This document shows, piece after piece, positions 388-7,441 of a stretch of DNA of 64,000 nucleotides; position 1 is the first letter of the stretch, and each line of letters starts with the position of its first letter. Location: NCBI GenBank assembly GCA_964494135.1, contig CAZBQN010000005.1, positions 934 to 64,933 of the forward strand, read 5' to 3'. This stretch comes from an uncultured Ruminococcus sp. Its GTDB lineage: Bacteria; Bacillota; Clostridia; Oscillospirales; CAG-272. A program made the position numbers and the translations under genes. A model generated the notes under the pieces. That model saw only the letters and a program-made list of their open reading frames with translations. It made no database searches and was not told the DNA's origin.

Positions 388-798
388 TTACAGGCTTTTC
401 GGCCCGCATTTATCCGATACGGTTTTTTTATCACACTCACCGTCAGCCCGACAATCGGGACAAAGGTAATACACCTTTAAATCGTAAAACAAAAAGTCCT
501 GACCCAGCTGATTTTTAAGTGATGAGGTAATATCGTCGAATGAAATATCCGTCAGCTTTCCGCAACGGTTGCAAACCAGATGGTCGTGCTTACAGACAGC
601 GTCATATCTGTCAGGCATTCCCTCAATGGATATTTTGCGAACAAGCCCCGCCTCGGTAAGCTTGTTTAAGTTGTTATATACCGTCGCACGCACGACACGT
701 GGCATAATACTCCTCAGACGATCGTATATTTCGCCGGCACTGAGATGCTCGCGGCTTGCCGTAACTATTTCGTAAACGGCTCTTTCATATTTTGTCAT
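388..798 (-). CDS. Fur-family regulator, PerR-like
   Basis: HLSAGEIY, ATVYNNL and HDHLVCNRCG...CPDC (two CxxC). The H/D/H/H/D ligand set matches PerR-type proteins. Confidence 0.85.
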   Translation of the reverse strand: MTKYERAVYEIVTASREHLSAGEIYDRLRSIMPRVVRATVYNNLNKLTEAGLVRKISIEGMPDRYDAVCKHDHLVCNRCGKLTDISFDDITSSLKNQLGQDFLFYDLKVYYLCPDCRADGECDKKTVSDKCGPKSL

Positions 799-811
799 TT
801 CAATAGTCCTA

Positions 812-848
812 AATTAGAATAATTCTAATTATATTATAATCATTTTAA
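812..848. promoter_or_regulatory. Two tandem PerR-type boxes
   Basis: Perfect palindrome AATTAGAAT-A-ATTCTAATT (812-830) and TTATAATCATTTTAA (834-848). The PerR consensus is TTATAATnATTATAA. Confidence 0.7.
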
Positions 849-860
849 ATTTTTTGTCAA
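833..860 (-). promoter_or_regulatory. sigma-A promoter of the perR-like/queD-like unit
   Basis: TTGACA-N16-TATAAT on the minus strand. Confidence 0.65.
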
Positions 861-966
861 TAGTAAATCGAAAAAACTGTCGGATTTTCAAAAAGGCGTA
901 TCAAGCTTCTCTTGCAGAAAGCTTTTCATAGGATATTGACTTCAAAGTCAAAAACGCGCAAAGGAT

Positions 967-1006
967 AAGGGCGAAGACGCTGTATAAACAACACCCTCGC
1001 CCCTTT
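967..1006 (-). terminator. Probable intrinsic terminator after GH89 and the small peptide
   Basis: GGGCGA...TCGCCC stem with an inner GU-rich stem, followed by TTATCCTTT. Confidence 0.5.
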
Positions 1007-1072: not shown

Positions 1073-1192
1073 TCAGTATATGAAAATATGCTCGTCGGTT
1101 TCAATCGGCTCCCCCGAGGAGGTAATGATATCCGTTTTGAAATCGATGGTCGCAATGACCGTCGCCTCCGGCGCCTCGTATTTTTTATCCAT
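1073..1192 (-). CDS. 39-aa peptide MDKKYEAPEATVIATIDFKTDIITSSGEPIETDEHIFIY
   Basis: Manual translation. ATG lies 4 nt after the GH89 stop, its RBS (AGGAGAG) is inside the last GH89 codons, and a terminator follows. Confidence 0.75.
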   Translation of the reverse strand: MDKKYEAPEATVIATIDFKTDIITSSGEPIETDEHIFIY

Positions 1193-1196
1193 AATC

Positions 1197-4100
1197 TTAC
1201 TCTCCTCTGCCGTTGTAATTCGATACGCTCGCTCCGTAGTTGTATATCGCTTTCAGAAGCTCAAGCATATCCGACGGTTCACCGTTCTGTTTGGCATACA
1301 GATAGGAATTGACCGAATAGGTAAGCGACTGTCCTGTCTGCACTCCGTTAATATAGAATTCGGCTGTTATTTCCTTATCGAATTCAGCGGCGGCAATCCC
1401 CTGAATATATATTCTGTAACAGTCGCCCTGAGAGACGAAGGAGTCCTGACCGTATTCTATCTCTCTGCCGTTTATCCGCACCTTAACGGTAAGGTTATCG
1501 GTGCTTGTGCAACAGAAGCTCAAATAAACCGCTGTTGGATATTCCAAACGCAGTCCGGCACCTCGCCAGTAAACCGACTCGTTTTTCTCGCCGACAATGG
1601 ACTGCTTATTATACTCATCGCCGAGAGTCTCGAAGCTGCTCGGCTTAAGAAGCTCGCCCAAGCCATCCGTTGCAAGATTTTCGGTATTATATCCGGAGAC
1701 TGTCTGTGCCTTTGCTCCGTAAACCAGAAGGTCGGATAAGAGCGTTATGAGAAGCTCATCCGTGCTGTTTTTCAGTTGATACTCGCAGTATTCTCTGACG
1801 CTGTACCCGTCTTTCACAACCTTGACCTCTTCGCCGCCGTAGGTTGCGCAAAGAGTGGCTGTAATATTATCTCGGAACTGCTGAGGAAGAACACCGGACA
1901 GGATAAACGATGAGGTATGGTCGCCATTTTCTTTGCCGTAAACTTTAGTTGTCATACCGTTGCACTCAAAAAGCATATATACGTTCTCGTATCCGTCCGG
2001 AACGACGGCGGTATAGACGATATTAACGTCGTCCTTTATCAAGAGCGCGGCACTCTGAAGCTTGAACTCATAGGCAAGTCCTGCTGCCGCCTGCTGTAAG
2101 AAATACTCCGCGCTCGAAAGAGCAAAGGCGTTGGAATTTACGGAAGACAGCACCCTCTCGGCGTAGCCGACGGCGTTTTCAAATTCTTTTGCGCTCTCGG
2201 CGGTGTAATTATACCTGTTGTAGCCCGCCGTCAAGTCCGTCAGCGAGCCCTTCAGCGTTTCTCTGCCGGTGCTGAAGCTCTCATCCTTAGGCGAGCCGTA
2301 AACCCTCAGCTCGTTGACGTGGAACGCCGTGTTTCTTGAATGATACGTGCCTACCAACTTGACGTACCTTGCGTACATACCCGACACGGGGTAATCTATG
2401 CCTTCCGCCACGGGCTCTGAATTATCGGTCTTCTCCCCTGCGAGCACCCAGTTCTCGCCGTCGGCACTTACGTAGATTTCGTACTTATAGTACCGACCCG
2501 TGTCGACGTAATTTACAATATTTATTTTCTTAATATCGTAAAGTTCGCCTAAATCTACGGTGATATACGGACGAAGCTCGGGAGTATTTGCCAGCCTGTT
2601 CCAGGTGTCGTCGACTGACTCTCCGGTAAGCTTCGGAACATCTCCGCAGTCCCAGTAACTGCCGTTGCCCGCGTTTCCGTCCACCGCAAGGTTGCCTGTG
2701 CGCCAGGAATTTGAGCCGCTGACCGTAGTGTCCTTGCCCTGAGAAATCAGCGATCCTATCAAAGAGCCGTAAGCCTCCAGCTCTCTTATATGAATCTGAT
2801 TGTTGCTGGTCTGGTTGCTGCCCGTTCCCACAACCTTAATATAGCGCGCCTCGGTGGACGGCAAGGACGTAGGATTGCCTGATATGGTAGCGACGTCGTC
2901 CGTGTCTTTCGAATATGCCAAGGTATACGTAACGTTATCAAGGCTGGTGTAAACCTCATAGTGATACCAGCGCACGCCGTTGTTGTAGGTTATGACGTTA
3001 ATTTGCGTCAGTGCGTATATGTCACCCAGGTCAATTGTAATATACTTTTCCACATCGGCTGTGTCTGCGGAATCCCAAAGCGTACTCGTGCTTCCGTCGT
3101 TAACTTTGTTTGAACCGCTCGAATAGTTTGTACCTACGACCGGCTTGTTCAGCGCGATATTCGAAAGCTCCTCGGGCAGGAAGCACTCGGATAAAACTTT
3201 AGCGCACGCCTCGGCAAGAAAGGCGGGAGAAGAGTTCGGTATTCTCGTATATTCGGGAGAATTGATGACCCACTTCCAACAGAGGCGGAAGTAATCCGAA
3301 ACGGTTTTCGCCGCGTAAGCCTCTCCGCCTTCCAGCTCAGCCTCCAGCCCGTCAAGATAATTCTGCCATCTTGGCAGGTAAATATCGGTTAACATTCCCG
3401 AATAGTGGCGGCGTGAATAATCGAGAAGGGCGCCGGTAGTTGCGGCATCGTAGCCTCCCCAGGTCGTAACCAAAGCCTTTGCGTTGATGACGAACATATC
3501 GTAGGTGAAGTCGTCGTACTTTTCCGCCCAGTCCTCAGCCTTACCTATCCATTCGCCGACCAAAAGATCCTTCTGCGTGCTCTGTATAAGGTCGCAGACG
3601 TAAAAGGCACTCAAAAAGCTCTCCTTACATTTTTTGAAAGCGGCGGCGTCGCCCGAGCTATAGGCCTCCATCATCGTTTTGTAAATCGAAAGCGTATAAT
3701 TGTTTATAATCTGCCGCACAATCTCGGCTATATCGTAGCGATAGCCCTCGCTCTCACAGAGAGCCGTGTAGTCCGCAAGAAGAAGCTCTAACGCATCTTC
3801 AAGAACCGTCTCGTTGTAAGGAATATTCTGCACGGTTGCTTTTTCGGGGATACGCTCCATAACGTAGGGACGGTTTCCGGTATTACTGTACACCGTCTTG
3901 AGAAGAAGCTTCCATGCCTCAATTGCTTTTGCGGAGGCGGTACCGTAACGGCGGAGAATATAGCTCTCTATCCAGGAGTTAAGGTTAAAGCTTCCCAGCG
4001 ACTCCCTGTCCTCCCACACAAGAGATAGGAACAGGTCGTAGACGACGGGGTTATCGTAGGTTGCCTCGGAAATAATGCCGATACCCGTCATATACTCCGC

Positions 4101-6407
4101 AGTATCGAGAGCCTCTTTGACGGCATTTACCGTTCTTTGAAGGTCCCAGTCGAGAGAGGGGTTGGCACCGTAGTTTTTCAATAGACACCATACCCAGGGC
4201 GTGCCGTCAAATTCTATTGCTTCAAGTTCGGTAGCACCGTAATTTGCGCCGTAATCGGTTTTACACCATCTGTTTTTATATATCGCGGTCAGGTCAAGCA
4301 CAACAGCGGGCTTTTCCGCAAGACCGTTTTCCGTACAGTATTCTTCAATACCGGTAAGCAATTCCTGCGTCGGATTTTGCTGCCAGGACTGAATTACCCA
4401 TACCGCCTCGCTGTCGTATGAAAGAAGCGAGGAGAGCACTTCCTTTGCAATGACGTTTTCGCCCAGGTCACCGGGTCTTATTCCGCCCTCGTGGAAGGGG
4501 TCGACCGCATAATAATGTGAGTTCTTTCCGAATGCCCATTCCTGACACTGATAGAAGACAGCCGCATATTCGTCATAAGCGTCGTTGTCAGTGCGAATGA
4601 TGCCGGGACGCTGATGTCCGCACCAGATGCCCTGCTTGAGAATTTCCGCGCCGGGCTGATAGTCGGAGAAGTCGGTGGGCACCATGCCTGCATAGCCCTG
4701 AAGTACCGTCTGAATTCCGAGCGAGCTCTTCCACCTCTGTGTTTTTCTCGCCATCTCCAGTCTGTCCTCTATCCATCCGTCGTGGACGGCACCGCCGTAG
4801 CTCTCCATATTGCCCATAAACTGCCATCCGTAGTAGGCAGGTCCCGTGAGCCAGTTTTTAGCGGCGTCAAAGGAATAACCGTAGCTCATAAGAAACTTCA
4901 CCCACACGGCTTCCTGTCCCGCAAGATCGAGCACGACGTTAACGCCGTTCAGGGCGAGCCAGTCGTTTTCTCTTTGGAAGTCCTCTTCATCGAAGAAAGC
5001 AAAGGTGTATTCGGTAGTGCAGTAGTTCACCGCATAGCGCACCTTATAGGGCGTTTCCTTCCTGACCGCAGTACCTATCTTTTGAACGGAGCCCGGCATT
5101 TTCGTCTGCCGTATCTGCTCGGAAATATGGACGTTGCAGTAGTTTTTATAATAGTAATTAAGACCTGAGGCAAGGCTGACGCCGTTGTTTCCCTTTATGA
5201 GAATTTTTCCGTCTGCGGTATCAGACAGCTCGTAGTAATCATTACCGCTTGCGGCTTCCTCCGAGAGCTCGAAAACAAACCAGTCGCGGTACTGTGCGCC
5301 GACGGTTCTTTCCACAATTCCGTATACGTTCTCCAGCGTTTCAGCCTCAGTAATCGGTGCGCTGTAAACGGAGTCAGCGAAAGATGTCAAATTAAGAATA
5401 TCCTCTATGCCGCCGTCGCGCAGGCTCTCTTTGTTGTTACCCGTTGCCGTGCCGTGTATGCGTATTTCAGAGAGAATTGCCTTTCCGCTGTCGCTGGCAT
5501 ATTCTATGCTGACACGGATAAAACGACAGGTATTGCCCGACAGGTCGGCTGTGTTTCCCTCGCTCCTTGAAGGAGTATCGTCTCTTTTCTTATACAGTCT
5601 CCGGTAGTTCTCACCGTCCGTGCTTCCGTATATGGAATAATAGTAATAAATGCCCTCATTTGCAAGAGGAAAGTAAAGCTGTGCATCCGACAACTCGTAG
5701 TTCTCCTCTAAGTCAATGTCTATGTAAGCAGGATAGTAAGCTCCCTGCCATGCTGTCGAATTCGCACCGTCCACCGCGTTTTGTGCAGTGTCCTTACCGG
5801 AATTGGCAGTCACGGGCTTATTGTAAGCGATATTTGAGGTTTCCTCGCCTTCCGCAGGCTCTTTGTAATTGGGATCCTCGTATCCGAACACCCGAAATTC
5901 ACTCATGTGTACCGAAGCGTTTTTCGTATTCTTTGTCATTCTCACGTATATGTACCTTATATTCAAGGGAGTCTCGAAAGTGTAACTGTCTCCCGTGGTA
6001 GTAGAGGGGTCATCATTCTTTTTCTCCCCCACAAAGCAAAGGCTGTTCTTATCCGGTCCTGCGTAAATCTCGTACTGATACGCTCTGCCGTCGTTGTTAT
6101 AATTGAGAGGGAAAGCAACCAGCTCCGAGACTATGCACCCCCGTCCCAGGTCTATCATAAACCAACCGGGCGCCACGCCTCCGTCCCAGAAATTAGTAGT
6201 TGAGCCGTCGATTATTCTGTCGAGGTTTGTTCCTGACCCCTCTACCGTTACCATACTGTTTGCACTCTTCAACGCCACGTTGGTAATCTCGGGCGTATCC
6301 GCCGCCGAGGCAATCAGTACCCCTGACACAAGCAGCATCAAAGAGCACAAAATCCCCGTAAGCAGGATTACAGTAATTTTGGAAAACGTTTTTTTCCGAA
6401 CTTCCAT
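1197..6407 (-). CDS. Secreted multimodular alpha-N-acetylglucosaminidase (GH89) with four F5/8 type C (CBM32-like) domains and a tandem C-terminal domain
   Basis: Signal peptide. GH89 motifs RYAVNYCT, ENDWLALNG, GWQFMGNM, VDPFHEG, WCLLKNYG and ISEATYDN. Four discoidin-like repeats (ITIDLG...RYIKV...ELE). Confidence 0.88.
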   Translation of the reverse strand: MEVRKKTFSKITVILLTGILCSLMLLVSGVLIASAADTPEITNVALKSANSMVTVEGSGTNLDRIIDGSTTNFWDGGVAPGWFMIDLGRGCIVSELVAFPLNYNNDGRAYQYEIYAGPDKNSLCFVGEKKNDDPSTTTGDSYTFETPLNIRYIYVRMTKNTKNASVHMSEFRVFGYEDPNYKEPAEGEETSNIAYNKPVTANSGKDTAQNAVDGANSTAWQGAYYPAYIDIDLEENYELSDAQLYFPLANEGIYYYYSIYGSTDGENYRRLYKKRDDTPSRSEGNTADLSGNTCRFIRVSIEYASDSGKAILSEIRIHGTATGNNKESLRDGGIEDILNLTSFADSVYSAPITEAETLENVYGIVERTVGAQYRDWFVFELSEEAASGNDYYELSDTADGKILIKGNNGVSLASGLNYYYKNYCNVHISEQIRQTKMPGSVQKIGTAVRKETPYKVRYAVNYCTTEYTFAFFDEEDFQRENDWLALNGVNVVLDLAGQEAVWVKFLMSYGYSFDAAKNWLTGPAYYGWQFMGNMESYGGAVHDGWIEDRLEMARKTQRWKSSLGIQTVLQGYAGMVPTDFSDYQPGAEILKQGIWCGHQRPGIIRTDNDAYDEYAAVFYQCQEWAFGKNSHYYAVDPFHEGGIRPGDLGENVIAKEVLSSLLSYDSEAVWVIQSWQQNPTQELLTGIEEYCTENGLAEKPAVVLDLTAIYKNRWCKTDYGANYGATELEAIEFDGTPWVWCLLKNYGANPSLDWDLQRTVNAVKEALDTAEYMTGIGIISEATYDNPVVYDLFLSLVWEDRESLGSFNLNSWIESYILRRYGTASAKAIEAWKLLLKTVYSNTGNRPYVMERIPEKATVQNIPYNETVLEDALELLLADYTALCESEGYRYDIAEIVRQIINNYTLSIYKTMMEAYSSGDAAAFKKCKESFLSAFYVCDLIQSTQKDLLVGEWIGKAEDWAEKYDDFTYDMFVINAKALVTTWGGYDAATTGALLDYSRRHYSGMLTDIYLPRWQNYLDGLEAELEGGEAYAAKTVSDYFRLCWKWVINSPEYTRIPNSSPAFLAEACAKVLSECFLPEELSNIALNKPVVGTNYSSGSNKVNDGSTSTLWDSADTADVEKYITIDLGDIYALTQINVITYNNGVRWYHYEVYTSLDNVTYTLAYSKDTDDVATISGNPTSLPSTEARYIKVVGTGSNQTSNNQIHIRELEAYGSLIGSLISQGKDTTVSGSNSWRTGNLAVDGNAGNGSYWDCGDVPKLTGESVDDTWNRLANTPELRPYITVDLGELYDIKKINIVNYVDTGRYYKYEIYVSADGENWVLAGEKTDNSEPVAEGIDYPVSGMYARYVKLVGTYHSRNTAFHVNELRVYGSPKDESFSTGRETLKGSLTDLTAGYNRYNYTAESAKEFENAVGYAERVLSSVNSNAFALSSAEYFLQQAAAGLAYEFKLQSAALLIKDDVNIVYTAVVPDGYENVYMLFECNGMTTKVYGKENGDHTSSFILSGVLPQQFRDNITATLCATYGGEEVKVVKDGYSVREYCEYQLKNSTDELLITLLSDLLVYGAKAQTVSGYNTENLATDGLGELLKPSSFETLGDEYNKQSIVGEKNESVYWRGAGLRLEYPTAVYLSFCCTSTDNLTVKVRINGREIEYGQDSFVSQGDCYRIYIQGIAAAEFDKEITAEFYINGVQTGQSLTYSVNSYLYAKQNGEPSDMLELLKAIYNYGASVSNYNGRGE

Positions 6408-6568: not shown

Positions 6569-7441
6569 ATGAAATCTTTTGGGTATTATTCTTCTGCGAA
6601 CTCCAATAGGCAAAGCCTTATAAATTGGTCTGATTCCGAGCGGCTTGACGTCCCCTTGTTTGTCAACTGCTCCGGCATAATAAGCAGAAGAGCCGGGTTC
6701 ACTACCTACAATCCCTGCGGACGCAGCGACTACTATCTTATCTACGTCGTCCGTGGCACGCTTCACATACCTGTCGGAGAAGAAGAAAAGGAGGCGCCGG
6801 ACGGCAGCGTTATCATTTTCCCGCCTCACTATAAATACAAGTACACCTTCCGCGGGAGCGAGGACGGGCTTCTGTACTACTGGGCGCATTTCACGGGAGG
6901 CAGAATTGAGAAGTTTCTTTCCAACCTTCATCTGCACCCCTTGCCCCTCTTGGTAAACATCGGCTACAGAGAACGGATCTCGGAGGATTTCGACCGCATC
7001 TTCAATGCCTACGTCAAGGATGATGCCTTTCGCGACGCGGAAATTGCCTGCACCTTCGGCAACATTCTGACCGCTGTCGCCCAAAACATTGCAGGCGCGG
7101 ACAAGAAGGGGAAGCTCAGCAAATCCCTGACTTATATTCATCTGCACTATCACGAAAAAATCAAAGTGGAACAGCTGGCGACAATCGAATGCCTGAGCGT
7201 ATCAAGATACAACGAAGTTTTCAAACAGTCTGTCGGAGAGCCTCCGATGTCATATATCGTCAGCCTGAGGCTGAAAAACGCCTGCACTCTGCTCGCCACC
7301 ACAAATCTGCCGATTGGAAAGATTGCTGAAACCGTCGGAATTCCGGACGTGCACTTTTTCTCAAAGATTTTCAAGAAAAACATCGGTATGTCTCCGTCGG
7401 AGTATAAAAACAGACAGCCGCATAACGATATAACCGAGTAG
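6569..7441 (+). CDS. AraC-family transcriptional regulator
   Basis: Cupin-like N-terminus. C-terminal double HTH (LRLKNACTLL...IAETVG...HFFSKIFKKNIGMSPSEYK). Divergent from GH89. Confidence 0.92.
   Translation: MKSFGYYSSANSNRQSLINWSDSERLDVPLFVNCSGIISRRAGFTTYNPCGRSDYYLIYVVRGTLHIPVGEEEKEAPDGSVIIFPPHYKYKYTFRGSEDGLLYYWAHFTGGRIEKFLSNLHLHPLPLLVNIGYRERISEDFDRIFNAYVKDDAFRDAEIACTFGNILTAVAQNIAGADKKGKLSKSLTYIHLHYHEKIKVEQLATIECLSVSRYNEVFKQSVGEPPMSYIVSLRLKNACTLLATTNLPIGKIAETVGIPDVHFFSKIFKKNIGMSPSEYKNRQPHNDITE

What the first reader, a model, noticed from the sequence alone, without database searches (positions are those of the whole stretch)
1073..1192. Unannotated 39-aa RiPP-leader-like peptide coupled to the GH89 surface enzyme
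Seen: MDKKYEAPEATVIATIDFKTDIITS|SGEPIETDEHIFIY, with its own RBS and closing the transcription unit. Known: YxxP near the N-terminus is the RRE/PqqD-binding motif of lasso-type leaders, which also have Thr at -2 and a core starting G/S/C with D/E at 7-9. Cleavage after ITS would give S1...D8/E9. No cyclase, peptidase or RRE is nearby. Inference: an orphan precursor processed in trans, or a partner of the enzyme's uncharacterised C-terminal domain (a possible surface-anchoring or export system).
Basis: partly seen in the sequence, partly recalled or inferred. Interest (0 to 1): 0.65.

Follow-up and report, generated by a model that had tools for sequence, protein, structure and literature searches.

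The report
Orphan precursor of phosphorylated linear peptide
The 39-residue reading frame is a real gene from a very large, unnamed family of gut-Clostridia precursor peptides matured by the recently described "linear polyphosphorylated peptide" (LPP) machinery. Its fixed position behind genes for secreted enzymes that share one C-terminal module suggests a testable role for these peptides, whose function is unknown.

Summary
The ORF is confirmed on the minus strand at 1073-1192. It has a GGAGAG ribosome-binding site, starts 4 nt after the GH89 stop codon, and is followed by a terminator-like hairpin.

It is not a chance ORF:
- A profile built without it scores it at E=3.9e-8 in its own genome.
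- The family has about 1,956 cluster representatives, all 29-59 aa.
- An ortholog shows a conserved leader and a changing tail.

It is not a lasso precursor. In dozens of genomes, family members lie directly upstream of a cassette of HprK-like kinase, PqqD recognition protein, SipW-type peptidase, ABC exporter and nucleotidyltransferase. That cassette is the LPP system published in 2026 for Bacilli (PMC13381572). The window's genome carries these genes scattered on other contigs, so "orphan precursor processed in trans" is supported.

By analogy with LPP, cleavage after Thr24 would release SSGEPIETDEHIFIY, phosphorylated on the invariant Ser26.

What appears to be new:
- Precursors are multi-copy. 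About 75% sit just 3' of genes for large secreted proteins.
- Many of those proteins end in a 290-aa module with no Pfam family, and the window's GH89 has it.
- Tail type follows module type.
- Lipoproteins encoded in the cassettes end in ELPFVP.
- One AlphaFold2 fusion model docks the tail on the module.

I rate it a new variant of a known kind.

The parts
1073..1192 (-). 39-aa LppA-like precursor peptide gene, stop codon included
   Evidence: ORF and translation. Independent family HMM scores it E=3.9e-8. Ortholog comparison.
1121..1192 (-). Predicted leader, residues 1-24 (MDKKYEAPEATVIATIDFKTDIIT)
   Evidence: This is the conserved half of the family. Against the ortholog it has 7 synonymous and 4 conservative changes. 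The boundary is set by analogy with the T(-1) cleavage of LppA (PMC13381572).
1169..1180 (-). Y5-E-A-P8, the YxxP motif for binding a PqqD-type recognition element
   Evidence: P8 is at least 90% conserved among 150 family representatives. In LppA, Y-16 and P-13 are needed for binding LppB (PMC13381572).
1112..1132 (-). Leader/core junction D21-I-I-T24-S-S26-G27
   Evidence: D21 and S26 are invariant. I23 and T24 are at least 90% conserved in 150 sequences. Reading T24 as the cleavage site and S26 as the phospho-acceptor is inference.
1076..1120 (-). Predicted core SSGEPIETDEHIFIY, with an acidic tail and an E-T-D motif
   Evidence: This is the variable half of the family. All 5 changes against the ortholog are non-synonymous. 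Tails with E[LT]P or ETD go with class A upstream modules.
1200..1205 (-). GGAGAG ribosome-binding site, inside the last codons of the GH89 gene
   Evidence: Read from the sequence: 7 nt before the ATG.
950..1004 (-). Terminator-like hairpin (17 bp) with a U-rich tail
   Evidence: RNA fold, centroid structure, z = -2.95.
1197..6407 (-). Gene for the secreted 1736-aa GH89 (NAGLU) enzyme with four F5/8-type-C domains, directly upstream of the peptide gene
   Evidence: Pfam domains. The N-terminal hydrophobic segment is visible in the translation.
1200..2069 (-). C-terminal "class A" module of the GH89 protein, about residues 1447-1736. It has two units, each a beta-sandwich plus a helical hairpin.
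   Evidence: No Pfam match. It aligns with the C-termini of 22 other proteins that precede family peptides. AF2 gives pLDDT 84.6 and pTM 0.79. Foldseek finds only generic Ig-like matches in the PDB.

Best explanation
The ORF encodes a ribosomal precursor peptide of the LPP (linear polyphosphorylated peptide) type. It is made together with the GH89 enzyme and matured by enzymes encoded elsewhere in the genome.

Proposed steps:
1. The leader, with its Y5xxP8 motif, is bound by the PqqD-type recognition protein (LppB-like, contig C3:66863-67129).
2. An HprK-like kinase (LppK-like, C3:17982-18755) phosphorylates the invariant Ser26.
3. The adjacent SipW/archaeal-type signal-peptidase homolog (LppS-like, C3:67125-67622, with Ser29/His68/Asp83) cuts after Thr24.
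4. The 15-residue core SSGEPIETDEHIFIY is exported. It may be further decorated by one of two NTP_transf_5 enzymes that lie in a polysaccharide locus (C4).

Shown here:
- The gene is real and belongs to the family.
- The family is physically and phylogenetically linked to this cassette.
- The cassette genes are present in this genome.

Inferred by analogy with the Bacilli system:
- The cleavage site, the phosphorylation and the export.

My best guess at function is held at lower confidence. The exported core, like the ELPFVP-tailed lipoproteins found in the cassettes, may be an extracellular ligand for the C-terminal class A module of the enzyme encoded just upstream. That would tether or organise the enzyme at the cell surface.
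For: Family membership:
- The independent HMM scores the ORF at E=3.9e-8.
- The family has 1,956 cluster representatives.

Cassette adjacency:
- Eleven loci in this order have a family peptide 1-3 kb upstream of a PqqD gene on the same strand.
- Among the 79 loci fetched from species genomes, blastp found 36 HprK-like kinase (K), 16 PqqD (B), 27 peptidase (S), 22 ABC exporter (D) and 23 nucleotidyltransferase (N) homologs. Many sit as a contiguous K-B-S-D-N block 0.1-4 kb after the peptide.
- Cassette proteins match HprK-related kinase/ScmC, lasso-type PqqD, archaeal/SipW signal peptidase I and MsbA-like ABC models.

Co-occurrence in 401 genomes of the order:
- Peptide with the LppS-like peptidase: 85/101 against 49/300, odds ratio 27, p=3e-35.
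- Peptide with PqqD: 88/101 against 111/300, odds ratio 11.5.

This genome:
- It has the LppB+LppS pair, an LppK-like gene and two LppN-like genes.
- Ser29, His68 and Asp83 of the peptidase are invariant.
- The peptidase is homologous to SpI peptidases listed in the LPP paper.

Other:
- The LPP system and its mechanism are described in PMC13381572.
- Leader-conserved, core-variable evolution.
- Metatranscriptome contigs of a relative about 91% identical run from the GH89 3' end through the ORF.
Against: - There is no evidence of translation or of any modification. The RNA evidence comes from assembled contigs of a relative and may include DNA.
- The junction differs from LppA. Here it is T-x-S, and in Bacilli it is T|x-x-S. 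The consensus leader also differs, apart from YxxP.
- The predicted core has 15 residues, against 45 in the characterised LppA.
- In this genome the cassette is dispersed, and no dedicated exporter could be singled out among many ABC genes.
- The genome is only 82% complete.
- This copy has a two-residue insertion in the leader and scores lower than two of its paralogs.
- The co-occurrence statistics are not corrected for phylogeny.
Confidence: 0.72

Rival explanations
1. It is an LPP-type precursor whose product acts on its own, for example as a bacteriocin, a signal or a capsule-associated factor. It would have no physical link to the upstream enzyme. Its position behind secreted-protein genes would only provide co-expression, or would reflect duplication of 3' gene ends together with the peptide.
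For: - LPP and paeninodin clusters show patchy, conflict-like distributions, and no function is known (PMC13381572).
- Some family members stand alone with their own promoter. Examples are the C1 copy of this genome and four tandem copies in L167.
- The tail/module correlation could come from shared ancestry of duplicated units.
Against: - About 75% of judgeable copies lie within 100 nt of the end of a gene that mostly encodes a large, signal-peptide-bearing protein.
- The class A module is found almost only in genomes with the LppS-like peptidase: 36/41 against 98/360.
- Lipoproteins exported by another route carry the same motif at their free end.
- AF2 places the tail on the module.
Confidence: 0.3
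2. It is a true lasso-peptide precursor. Cleavage would follow ITS, and Ser1 would be cyclised onto Asp8 or Glu9 by a cyclase encoded elsewhere.
For: - The leader has YxxP and a Thr near the junction.
- This particular core has D/E at positions 8-9 counted from Ser26.
- Lasso and LPP leaders share the RRE-binding motif (PMC13381572).
Against: - No Transglut_core3 (B2) gene is present in the genome.
- The cassettes next to family members are contiguous K-B-S-D-N blocks with no room for a cyclase.
- Their peptidase is a serine SpI type, not B2.
- Many family cores lack the ring geometry, for example GDFDDIGNYPDVWE.
Confidence: 0.03
3. It is an unmodified small protein, for example a secretion or folding partner of the upstream enzyme, that merely resembles a RiPP leader.
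For: - It is tightly coupled in translation to the upstream gene. Gaps range from -4 to +30 nt in many loci.
- No modification has been shown.
Against: - A generic partner protein would not be expected to co-occur and co-localise with an RRE, peptidase and kinase cassette.
- Only the leader half is conserved.
Confidence: 0.08
4. It is a chance ORF with no product.
For: - Short ORFs are common in this sequence.
- There is no direct evidence of protein.
Against: - Independent HMM hit at E=3.9e-8.
- Thousands of homologs of similar length.
- The frame and its length are kept in the ortholog, and synonymous changes are concentrated in the leader.
- A ribosome-binding site is present.
Confidence: 0.02

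Closest known systems
LPP (linear polyphosphorylated peptide) system of Bacilli: LppA, K, B, S, D, N (Popov et al., Nat Commun 2026, PMC13381572)
   Same: - The gene set is the same: HprK-like kinase, discrete PqqD RRE, SipW/archaeal-type Ser/His/Asp leader peptidase, MsbA-like exporter and NTP_transf_5.
- The precursor has an N-terminal YxxP motif, a conserved Thr at the junction, a nearby conserved Ser and a variable C-terminus.
- There is no cyclase.
- The genes lie near polysaccharide loci. In this genome the LppN-like genes sit in such a locus.
   Different: - The leader consensus differs: MKKxYExPEhEhIxFExEDhITTSG against YxxPxVLxHQxIxFETxxS. The Thr-to-Ser spacing is one residue shorter.
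- Cores are much shorter, about 8-25 aa against 45.
- There are up to 9 dispersed precursor genes per genome for mostly one, at most three, peptidase genes.
- Precursors sit at the 3' end of genes for large secreted proteins.
- The cassettes encode ELPFVP-tailed lipoproteins.
- The paper lists a few clostridial SpI homologs in minor network clusters but does not study them or their precursors.
Paeninodin/pseudomycoidin-type lasso peptide clusters of Bacillota
   Same: - The [Y/W]xxP leader is read by a B1 PqqD protein.
- They also have an HprK-like kinase, a nucleotidyltransferase and an ABC exporter.
   Different: - The lasso clusters have a macrolactam cyclase and a B2 cysteine peptidase, which are absent here.
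- Their kinase acts on the C-terminal Ser of a lasso fold.
Cohesin-dockerin and other non-covalent surface-anchoring pairs (functional analogy only)
   Same: - Secreted enzymes with varied catalytic parts share one C-terminal module.
- A short partner sequence is displayed on membrane-anchored proteins.
   Different: - There is no sequence or fold relationship. Foldseek finds only generic Ig-like sandwiches.
- Binding has not been shown.
- The partner here would be a roughly 10-residue linear motif, carried in part by RiPP-type peptides.

Membership tests
LPP precursor (LppA-like) | N-terminal leader with a YxxP motif for a discrete PqqD-type RRE | tested here: met
   Y5-E-A-P8 is present. P8 is at least 90% conserved and Y/F is usual in 150 family representatives.
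LPP precursor (LppA-like) | Conserved junction: hydrophobic(-3), x, T(-1), cut, x, x, S(+3), with Ser as the phospho-acceptor | tested here: inconclusive
   The family junction is D-[VI]-I-T-x-S-G. T24 is at least 90% conserved and S26 is invariant. The Thr-to-Ser spacing is one residue shorter than in the Bacilli logo.
LPP precursor (LppA-like) | Encoded next to lppK-lppB-lppS-lppD-lppN | tested here: not met
   This copy is an orphan, with no such gene in the window. Many other family members are adjacent to the full cassette. The genome carries K-, B-, S- and N-like genes on other contigs.
LPP precursor (LppA-like) | Genome encodes an RRE-adjacent SpI-type (SipW/archaeal) leader peptidase with a Ser/His/Asp triad | tested here: met
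   The gene is at C3:67125-67622 and overlaps the end of the PqqD gene. It hits TIGR02228 (1.9e-9) and the SipW model. S29, H68 and D83 are invariant. It is 30% identical to WP_113034598.1 and matches SCH01704.1 at E=9e-21, both from the paper's table.
LPP precursor (LppA-like) | Phylogenetic co-occurrence of precursor and machinery | tested here: met
   85/101 genomes with the peptide have the LppS-like gene, against 49/300 without it. Odds ratio 27, p=3e-35, not corrected for phylogeny.
LPP precursor (LppA-like) | Polyphosphorylation of the core Ser and RRE-dependent cleavage | not testable with these tools
   This needs mass spectrometry of co-expressed peptide and enzymes.
Lasso peptide precursor | Macrolactam cyclase (Asn-synthetase-like) and B2 transglutaminase-like peptidase in the cluster or genome | tested here: not met
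   No PF13471 match in the genome, which is 82% complete. The cassettes are contiguous K-B-S-D-N blocks without a cyclase-sized gene. The cyclase itself was not searched genome-wide, because AsnB paralogs would confound the search.
Lasso peptide precursor | Thr at -2 and a core starting G/A/S/C with D/E at positions 7-9 | tested here: inconclusive
   This peptide can be read that way (S26...D33/E34). Many relatives cannot. In the LPP frame the Thr is at -1.

The most novel reading that the evidence does not exclude
Gut Clostridia would use LPP-type peptides and ELPFVP-tailed lipoproteins as extracellular docking ligands for a conserved 290-aa C-terminal module that has no Pfam family. The module has two beta-sandwich-plus-helical-hairpin units and is carried by many secreted enzymes and adhesin-like proteins.

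Each enzyme gene would bring its own ligand gene. After leader removal and Ser phosphorylation or glycosylation, which might link it to wall or capsule polymers, the ligand would hold the enzyme at the cell surface or release it. This would be a new non-covalent surface-display system. It would also be the first proposed function for LPP peptides.
Probability: 0.3. Interest if true: 0.88.

Novelty: new variant of a known kind. Interest (0 to 1): 0.66.

Why it matters
The biological role of LPP peptides is stated to be unknown (PMC13381572), and the system has been characterised only in Bacilli. This locus adds several points:

- A much larger branch exists in gut and rumen Clostridia, including Ruminococcus, Lachnospiraceae and Oscillospiraceae. 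It comprises thousands of short genes that carry no name in the public sources checked and match no Pfam or NCBIfam model.
- One maturation machinery serves many dispersed precursors.
- Precursor genes are wired to genes for secreted glycoside hydrolases and other surface proteins that share an undescribed C-terminal module.

This turns an open question into simple experiments, such as peptide-module binding or enzyme localisation in deletion mutants. It bears on how mucin- and fibre-degrading gut bacteria keep their enzymes at the cell surface. It also gives annotators a reason to call these small genes.

Tried and rejected
- Pfam and NCBIfam scans of the peptide gave nothing.
- The word-indexed search of 5.8 billion proteins found only the peptide itself. 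The first attempt failed because the query was under 40 aa.
- A single-sequence search of 301 genomes of the family gave only marginal hits. They were nevertheless real and seeded the profile.
- Literature searches for sequence strings (DVITTS and similar) and for "ScmC" led nowhere. A paper on rumen lasso peptides showed different leaders.
- The local Pfam copy did not reproduce the precomputed ScmC hit. NCBIfam gave weak ScmC and HprK_rel_A matches.
- The PDB has no chain resembling the peptide family.
- Foldseek found no specific structural relative of the class A module.
- A search of the window's genome for ELPFVP-type lipoproteins found only a 68-aa membrane protein ending GGFDTPIIDI, in no telling context.
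- Model coordinates and PAE are not available, so the contacts in the fusion model could not be listed.
- The lasso reading and the chance-ORF reading were considered and rejected, as set out under the rival explanations.

Full report
**1. The observation**

The minus strand of the window carries an ATG-started 39-codon frame at 1073-1192. It encodes MDKKYEAPEATVIATIDFKTDIITSSGEPIETDEHIFIY.

- The frame begins 4 nt after the TAA of a 1736-aa protein. That protein has NAGLU N-terminal, TIM-barrel and C-terminal domains (GH89) and four F5/8-type-C domains.
- A GGAGAG ribosome-binding site lies 7 nt before the ATG.
- Downstream there is a 17-bp hairpin followed by a U-rich stretch.
- The next gene, a Fur-family regulator, has its own perfect TTGACA-16-TATAAT promoter.

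**2. The ORF is not a chance frame**

Short frames are common here: the first 6 kb hold 71 ORFs of 25 aa or more. Homology therefore decides.

- The peptide alone gave only weak hits in 301 genomes of the same family. These were short ORFs with the same pattern, M-x-K-x-[YF]-x-x-P...D-[VI]-I-T-x-S-G.
- A seven-sequence profile found matches in 101 of 401 genomes of the order, with up to nine per genome. It found four further copies in the window's own genome, on contigs C1, C23 and C26 (two copies).
- Against 1.84 billion cluster representatives, the profile found 1,956 proteins at E<=0.001. The 150 best listed are 29-59 aa long. The consensus is MKKxYExPExEIIxFxxEDIITTSG followed by a variable tail.
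- An HMM built without the window peptide and its ortholog scores the window ORF at E=3.9e-8 among 48,898 frames of the genome. It retrieves exactly the five paralogs.
- An orthologous locus with 92% nucleotide identity keeps the frame. The first 24 codons carry 7 synonymous and 4 conservative changes. The last 15 carry 5 non-synonymous and no synonymous changes. This is the leader-conserved, core-variable pattern of RiPP precursors.
- Assembled bovine metatranscriptome contigs from a relative about 91% identical run without a break from the GH89 3' end through the ORF. This is weak evidence of co-transcription and says nothing about translation.
- No source names any of the ten family members that were checked.

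**3. What the family goes with**

One family member (L077) lay 2 kb from a block of five genes: an HprK-like protein, PqqD, a small GxSMxP peptidase, an ABC exporter and NTP_transf_5.

- A PqqD search of the same 401 genomes showed 11 loci where a family peptide lies 1-3 kb upstream of PqqD on the same strand.
- In 79 further loci from species genomes (Ruminococcus, Lachnospiraceae, Oscillospiraceae, Roseburia, Blautia and others), many peptides are followed by a contiguous block. The order is kinase, PqqD, peptidase, exporter, nucleotidyltransferase, starting 0.1-1 kb downstream.
- Co-occurrence is strong. 85 of 101 genomes with the peptide have the peptidase, against 49 of 300 without it (odds ratio 27, p=3e-35). 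For PqqD the figures are 88/101 against 111/300. These tests are not corrected for phylogeny or for genome incompleteness.
- Most genomes have one peptidase gene (a few have two or three) but several peptide genes. Processing in trans is therefore the rule.

**4. Identity of the cassette**

Notes from earlier agents of this scan pointed to a published system, and I read the paper. Popov et al. (Nat Commun 2026, PMC13381572) describe linear polyphosphorylated peptides in Bacilli.

- The components are the precursor LppA, HprK-like kinase LppK, RRE LppB, archaeal/SipW-type signal peptidase LppS, exporter LppD and NTP transferase LppN.
- LppB binds the YxxP leader.
- LppS, with LppB, cuts after Thr(-1).
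- LppK puts several phosphates on core Ser3.
- The function of the system is unknown, and the clusters often sit in capsule loci.

The window's genome has the following matching genes:
- A PqqD gene (C3:66863-67129), overlapped at its end by a SipW-like peptidase gene (C3:67125-67622).
- An HprK-like gene (C3:17982-18755), 38% identical to a cassette kinase.
- Two NTP_transf_5-like genes in a polysaccharide locus on C4.

The peptidase keeps Ser29, His68 and Asp83. It is homologous to SpI proteins tabulated in the paper. The paper lists a few clostridial SpI homologs in minor network clusters but does not analyse them or their precursors. No lasso B2 peptidase is present in the genome, and the cassettes have no room for a cyclase.

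The peptide is therefore best read as an LppA-like orphan precursor, not a lasso precursor. By analogy, cleavage after Thr24 gives SSGEPIETDEHIFIY with the invariant Ser26 as phosphate acceptor. The Thr-to-Ser spacing is one residue shorter than in Bacilli, so the exact site remains an inference.

**5. The link to the upstream gene**

*Position.*
- Of 72 judgeable family genes in the 79 loci, 54 have a same-strand ORF ending within 100 nt upstream.
- 47 of those ORFs are 300 aa or longer.
- 36 of the 43 with a complete N-terminus look like signal-peptide proteins, by a crude test.
- Gaps of -4 to +30 nt are common.

*Class A module.*
- Many upstream proteins end in the same module of about 290 aa, which I call class A. 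Its last helix reads ..SYSPMSYAYxVLxS....LKNLVKALYLYxxAAxAY.
- The window's GH89 has this module. So do the proteins preceding two of the other four copies in this genome.
- The module has no Pfam model.
- AF2 folds the GH89 copy confidently (pLDDT 84.6) as two units, each a seven-stranded sandwich plus a helical hairpin. Foldseek finds only generic Ig-like tandems.

*Second type of upstream protein.* A second type of upstream C-terminus (..WYARAYLVYTDKNGNxHTVYG, here called class B), found after Listeria-Bacteroides repeats, goes with different tails.

*Tail type follows module type.* Tails containing E[LT]P or ETD follow class A in 22 of 26 cases and class B in 0 of 9 (p=1e-5). The patterns were defined after seeing the data. 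The window peptide (..IETDEHIFIY) fits the class A type.

*Co-occurrence of the module.* Class A modules occur in 41 of 401 genomes. Of these, 36 have the LppS-like peptidase, against 98 of the other 360 (odds ratio 19, p=3e-14). 33 have the peptide.

*Lipoproteins.*
- In the Ruminococcus-type loci, a lipoprotein of 135-165 aa lies between the peptide gene and the kinase gene.
- It has a Thr/Ser/Glu-rich linker and ends in (V/D)(I/N)ELPFVP(V/A/I)x. This is seen in at least 11 loci.
- Similar tails occur on membrane proteins beside cassettes in L077, L097 and L100.
- The same short motif is thus displayed outside the cell in two ways: on a membrane anchor, and on the exported peptides.

*Fusion model.*
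- At locus L125 the module and the peptide are in frame across a TAA stop. I modelled this natural read-through fusion with AF2.
- The module scores pLDDT above 90.
- The linker and leader score below 50.
- The last ten or so residues (..EGETPFVPI) rise to 81-88 and form beta-bridges. The tail is therefore predicted to dock on the module.
- This is one prediction, without controls, PAE or coordinates.

**6. Reading**

Well supported:
- The gene is real.
- It is an LPP-type precursor.
- It is an orphan in this genome, processed in trans.
- It is coupled genetically to the GH89 gene and its C-terminal module.

Inferred by analogy: the cleavage site, Ser26 phosphorylation and export.

Hypothesis (about 30%): the core tail is a ligand for the class A module, making the peptides and the ELPFVP lipoproteins parts of a surface-docking system.

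Main alternative: the product acts independently, and the linkage reflects co-expression or co-duplication.

**7. Novelty**

The RiPP class has been known since May 2026, so this is not categorically new. Four things are new relative to that description:
- A clostridial branch with its own leader and junction.
- The scale and dispersal of the precursor genes.
- Their fixed position behind genes for secreted proteins that share an undescribed module.
- The ELPFVP lipoproteins.

An earlier agent of this scan had already noted, in another genome, a cassette whose substrate gene lies after a gene for a secreted carbohydrate-binding protein. My results agree with that note and generalise it.

Noticed in passing
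L103, L104, L107, L111, L116, L121, L131, L138, L150, L164, L165 (the gene just upstream of the kinase gene): Small lipoproteins (135-165 aa) with a Thr/Ser/Glu-rich linker all end in ..ELPFVP(V/A/I)x. In L180 the motif instead follows the signal peptide of a protein with a C-terminal membrane anchor.
   Followed up: partly
L117, L122, L126, L129, L132, L140, L145, L152, L169 (upstream proteins): A second recurrent C-terminus (..WYARAYLVYTDKNGNxHTVYG, after Listeria-Bacteroides repeats) precedes family peptides whose tails are Gly/Asp-rich (..GDGGxED) and lack the E[LT]P motif.
   Followed up: partly
L167:2481-3223: Four family precursor genes lie in tandem directly upstream of the kinase gene, with no large upstream protein.
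   Followed up: no
L098:7384-8739, and also L153 and L172: Some cassettes include a radical-SAM-like gene of about 450 aa (CxxxCxxC) next to PqqD and the kinase. This suggests sub-types with an extra cross-linking step.
   Followed up: no
Own genome, contig C3:15044-18755 (outside the window): The LppK-like kinase gene directly follows, and slightly overlaps, a gene for a 992-aa leucine-rich-repeat surface protein. It is followed by chain-length-determinant-like genes, and a run of N interrupts the assembly just downstream.
   Followed up: partly
Own genome, contig C20:18618-18824 (outside the window): A 68-aa membrane-anchored protein has a Gly/Asn-rich linker and ends GGFDTPIIDI, which resembles the ETP/ELP tails. 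It lies after a PEP carboxykinase-like gene, in no telling context.
   Followed up: partly
window 388-860 (minus strand): A Fur-family regulator gene (388-798) has a 12/12 consensus promoter (833-860). It is followed by a QueD/PTPS-like gene (1-363).
   Followed up: no
window 6569-7441 (plus strand; contig C5:7502-8374): An AraC-family regulator gene lies divergent from the GH89 gene and is conserved in the three public contigs that carry the identical peptide. It is a likely regulator of the GH89-peptide unit.
   Followed up: no
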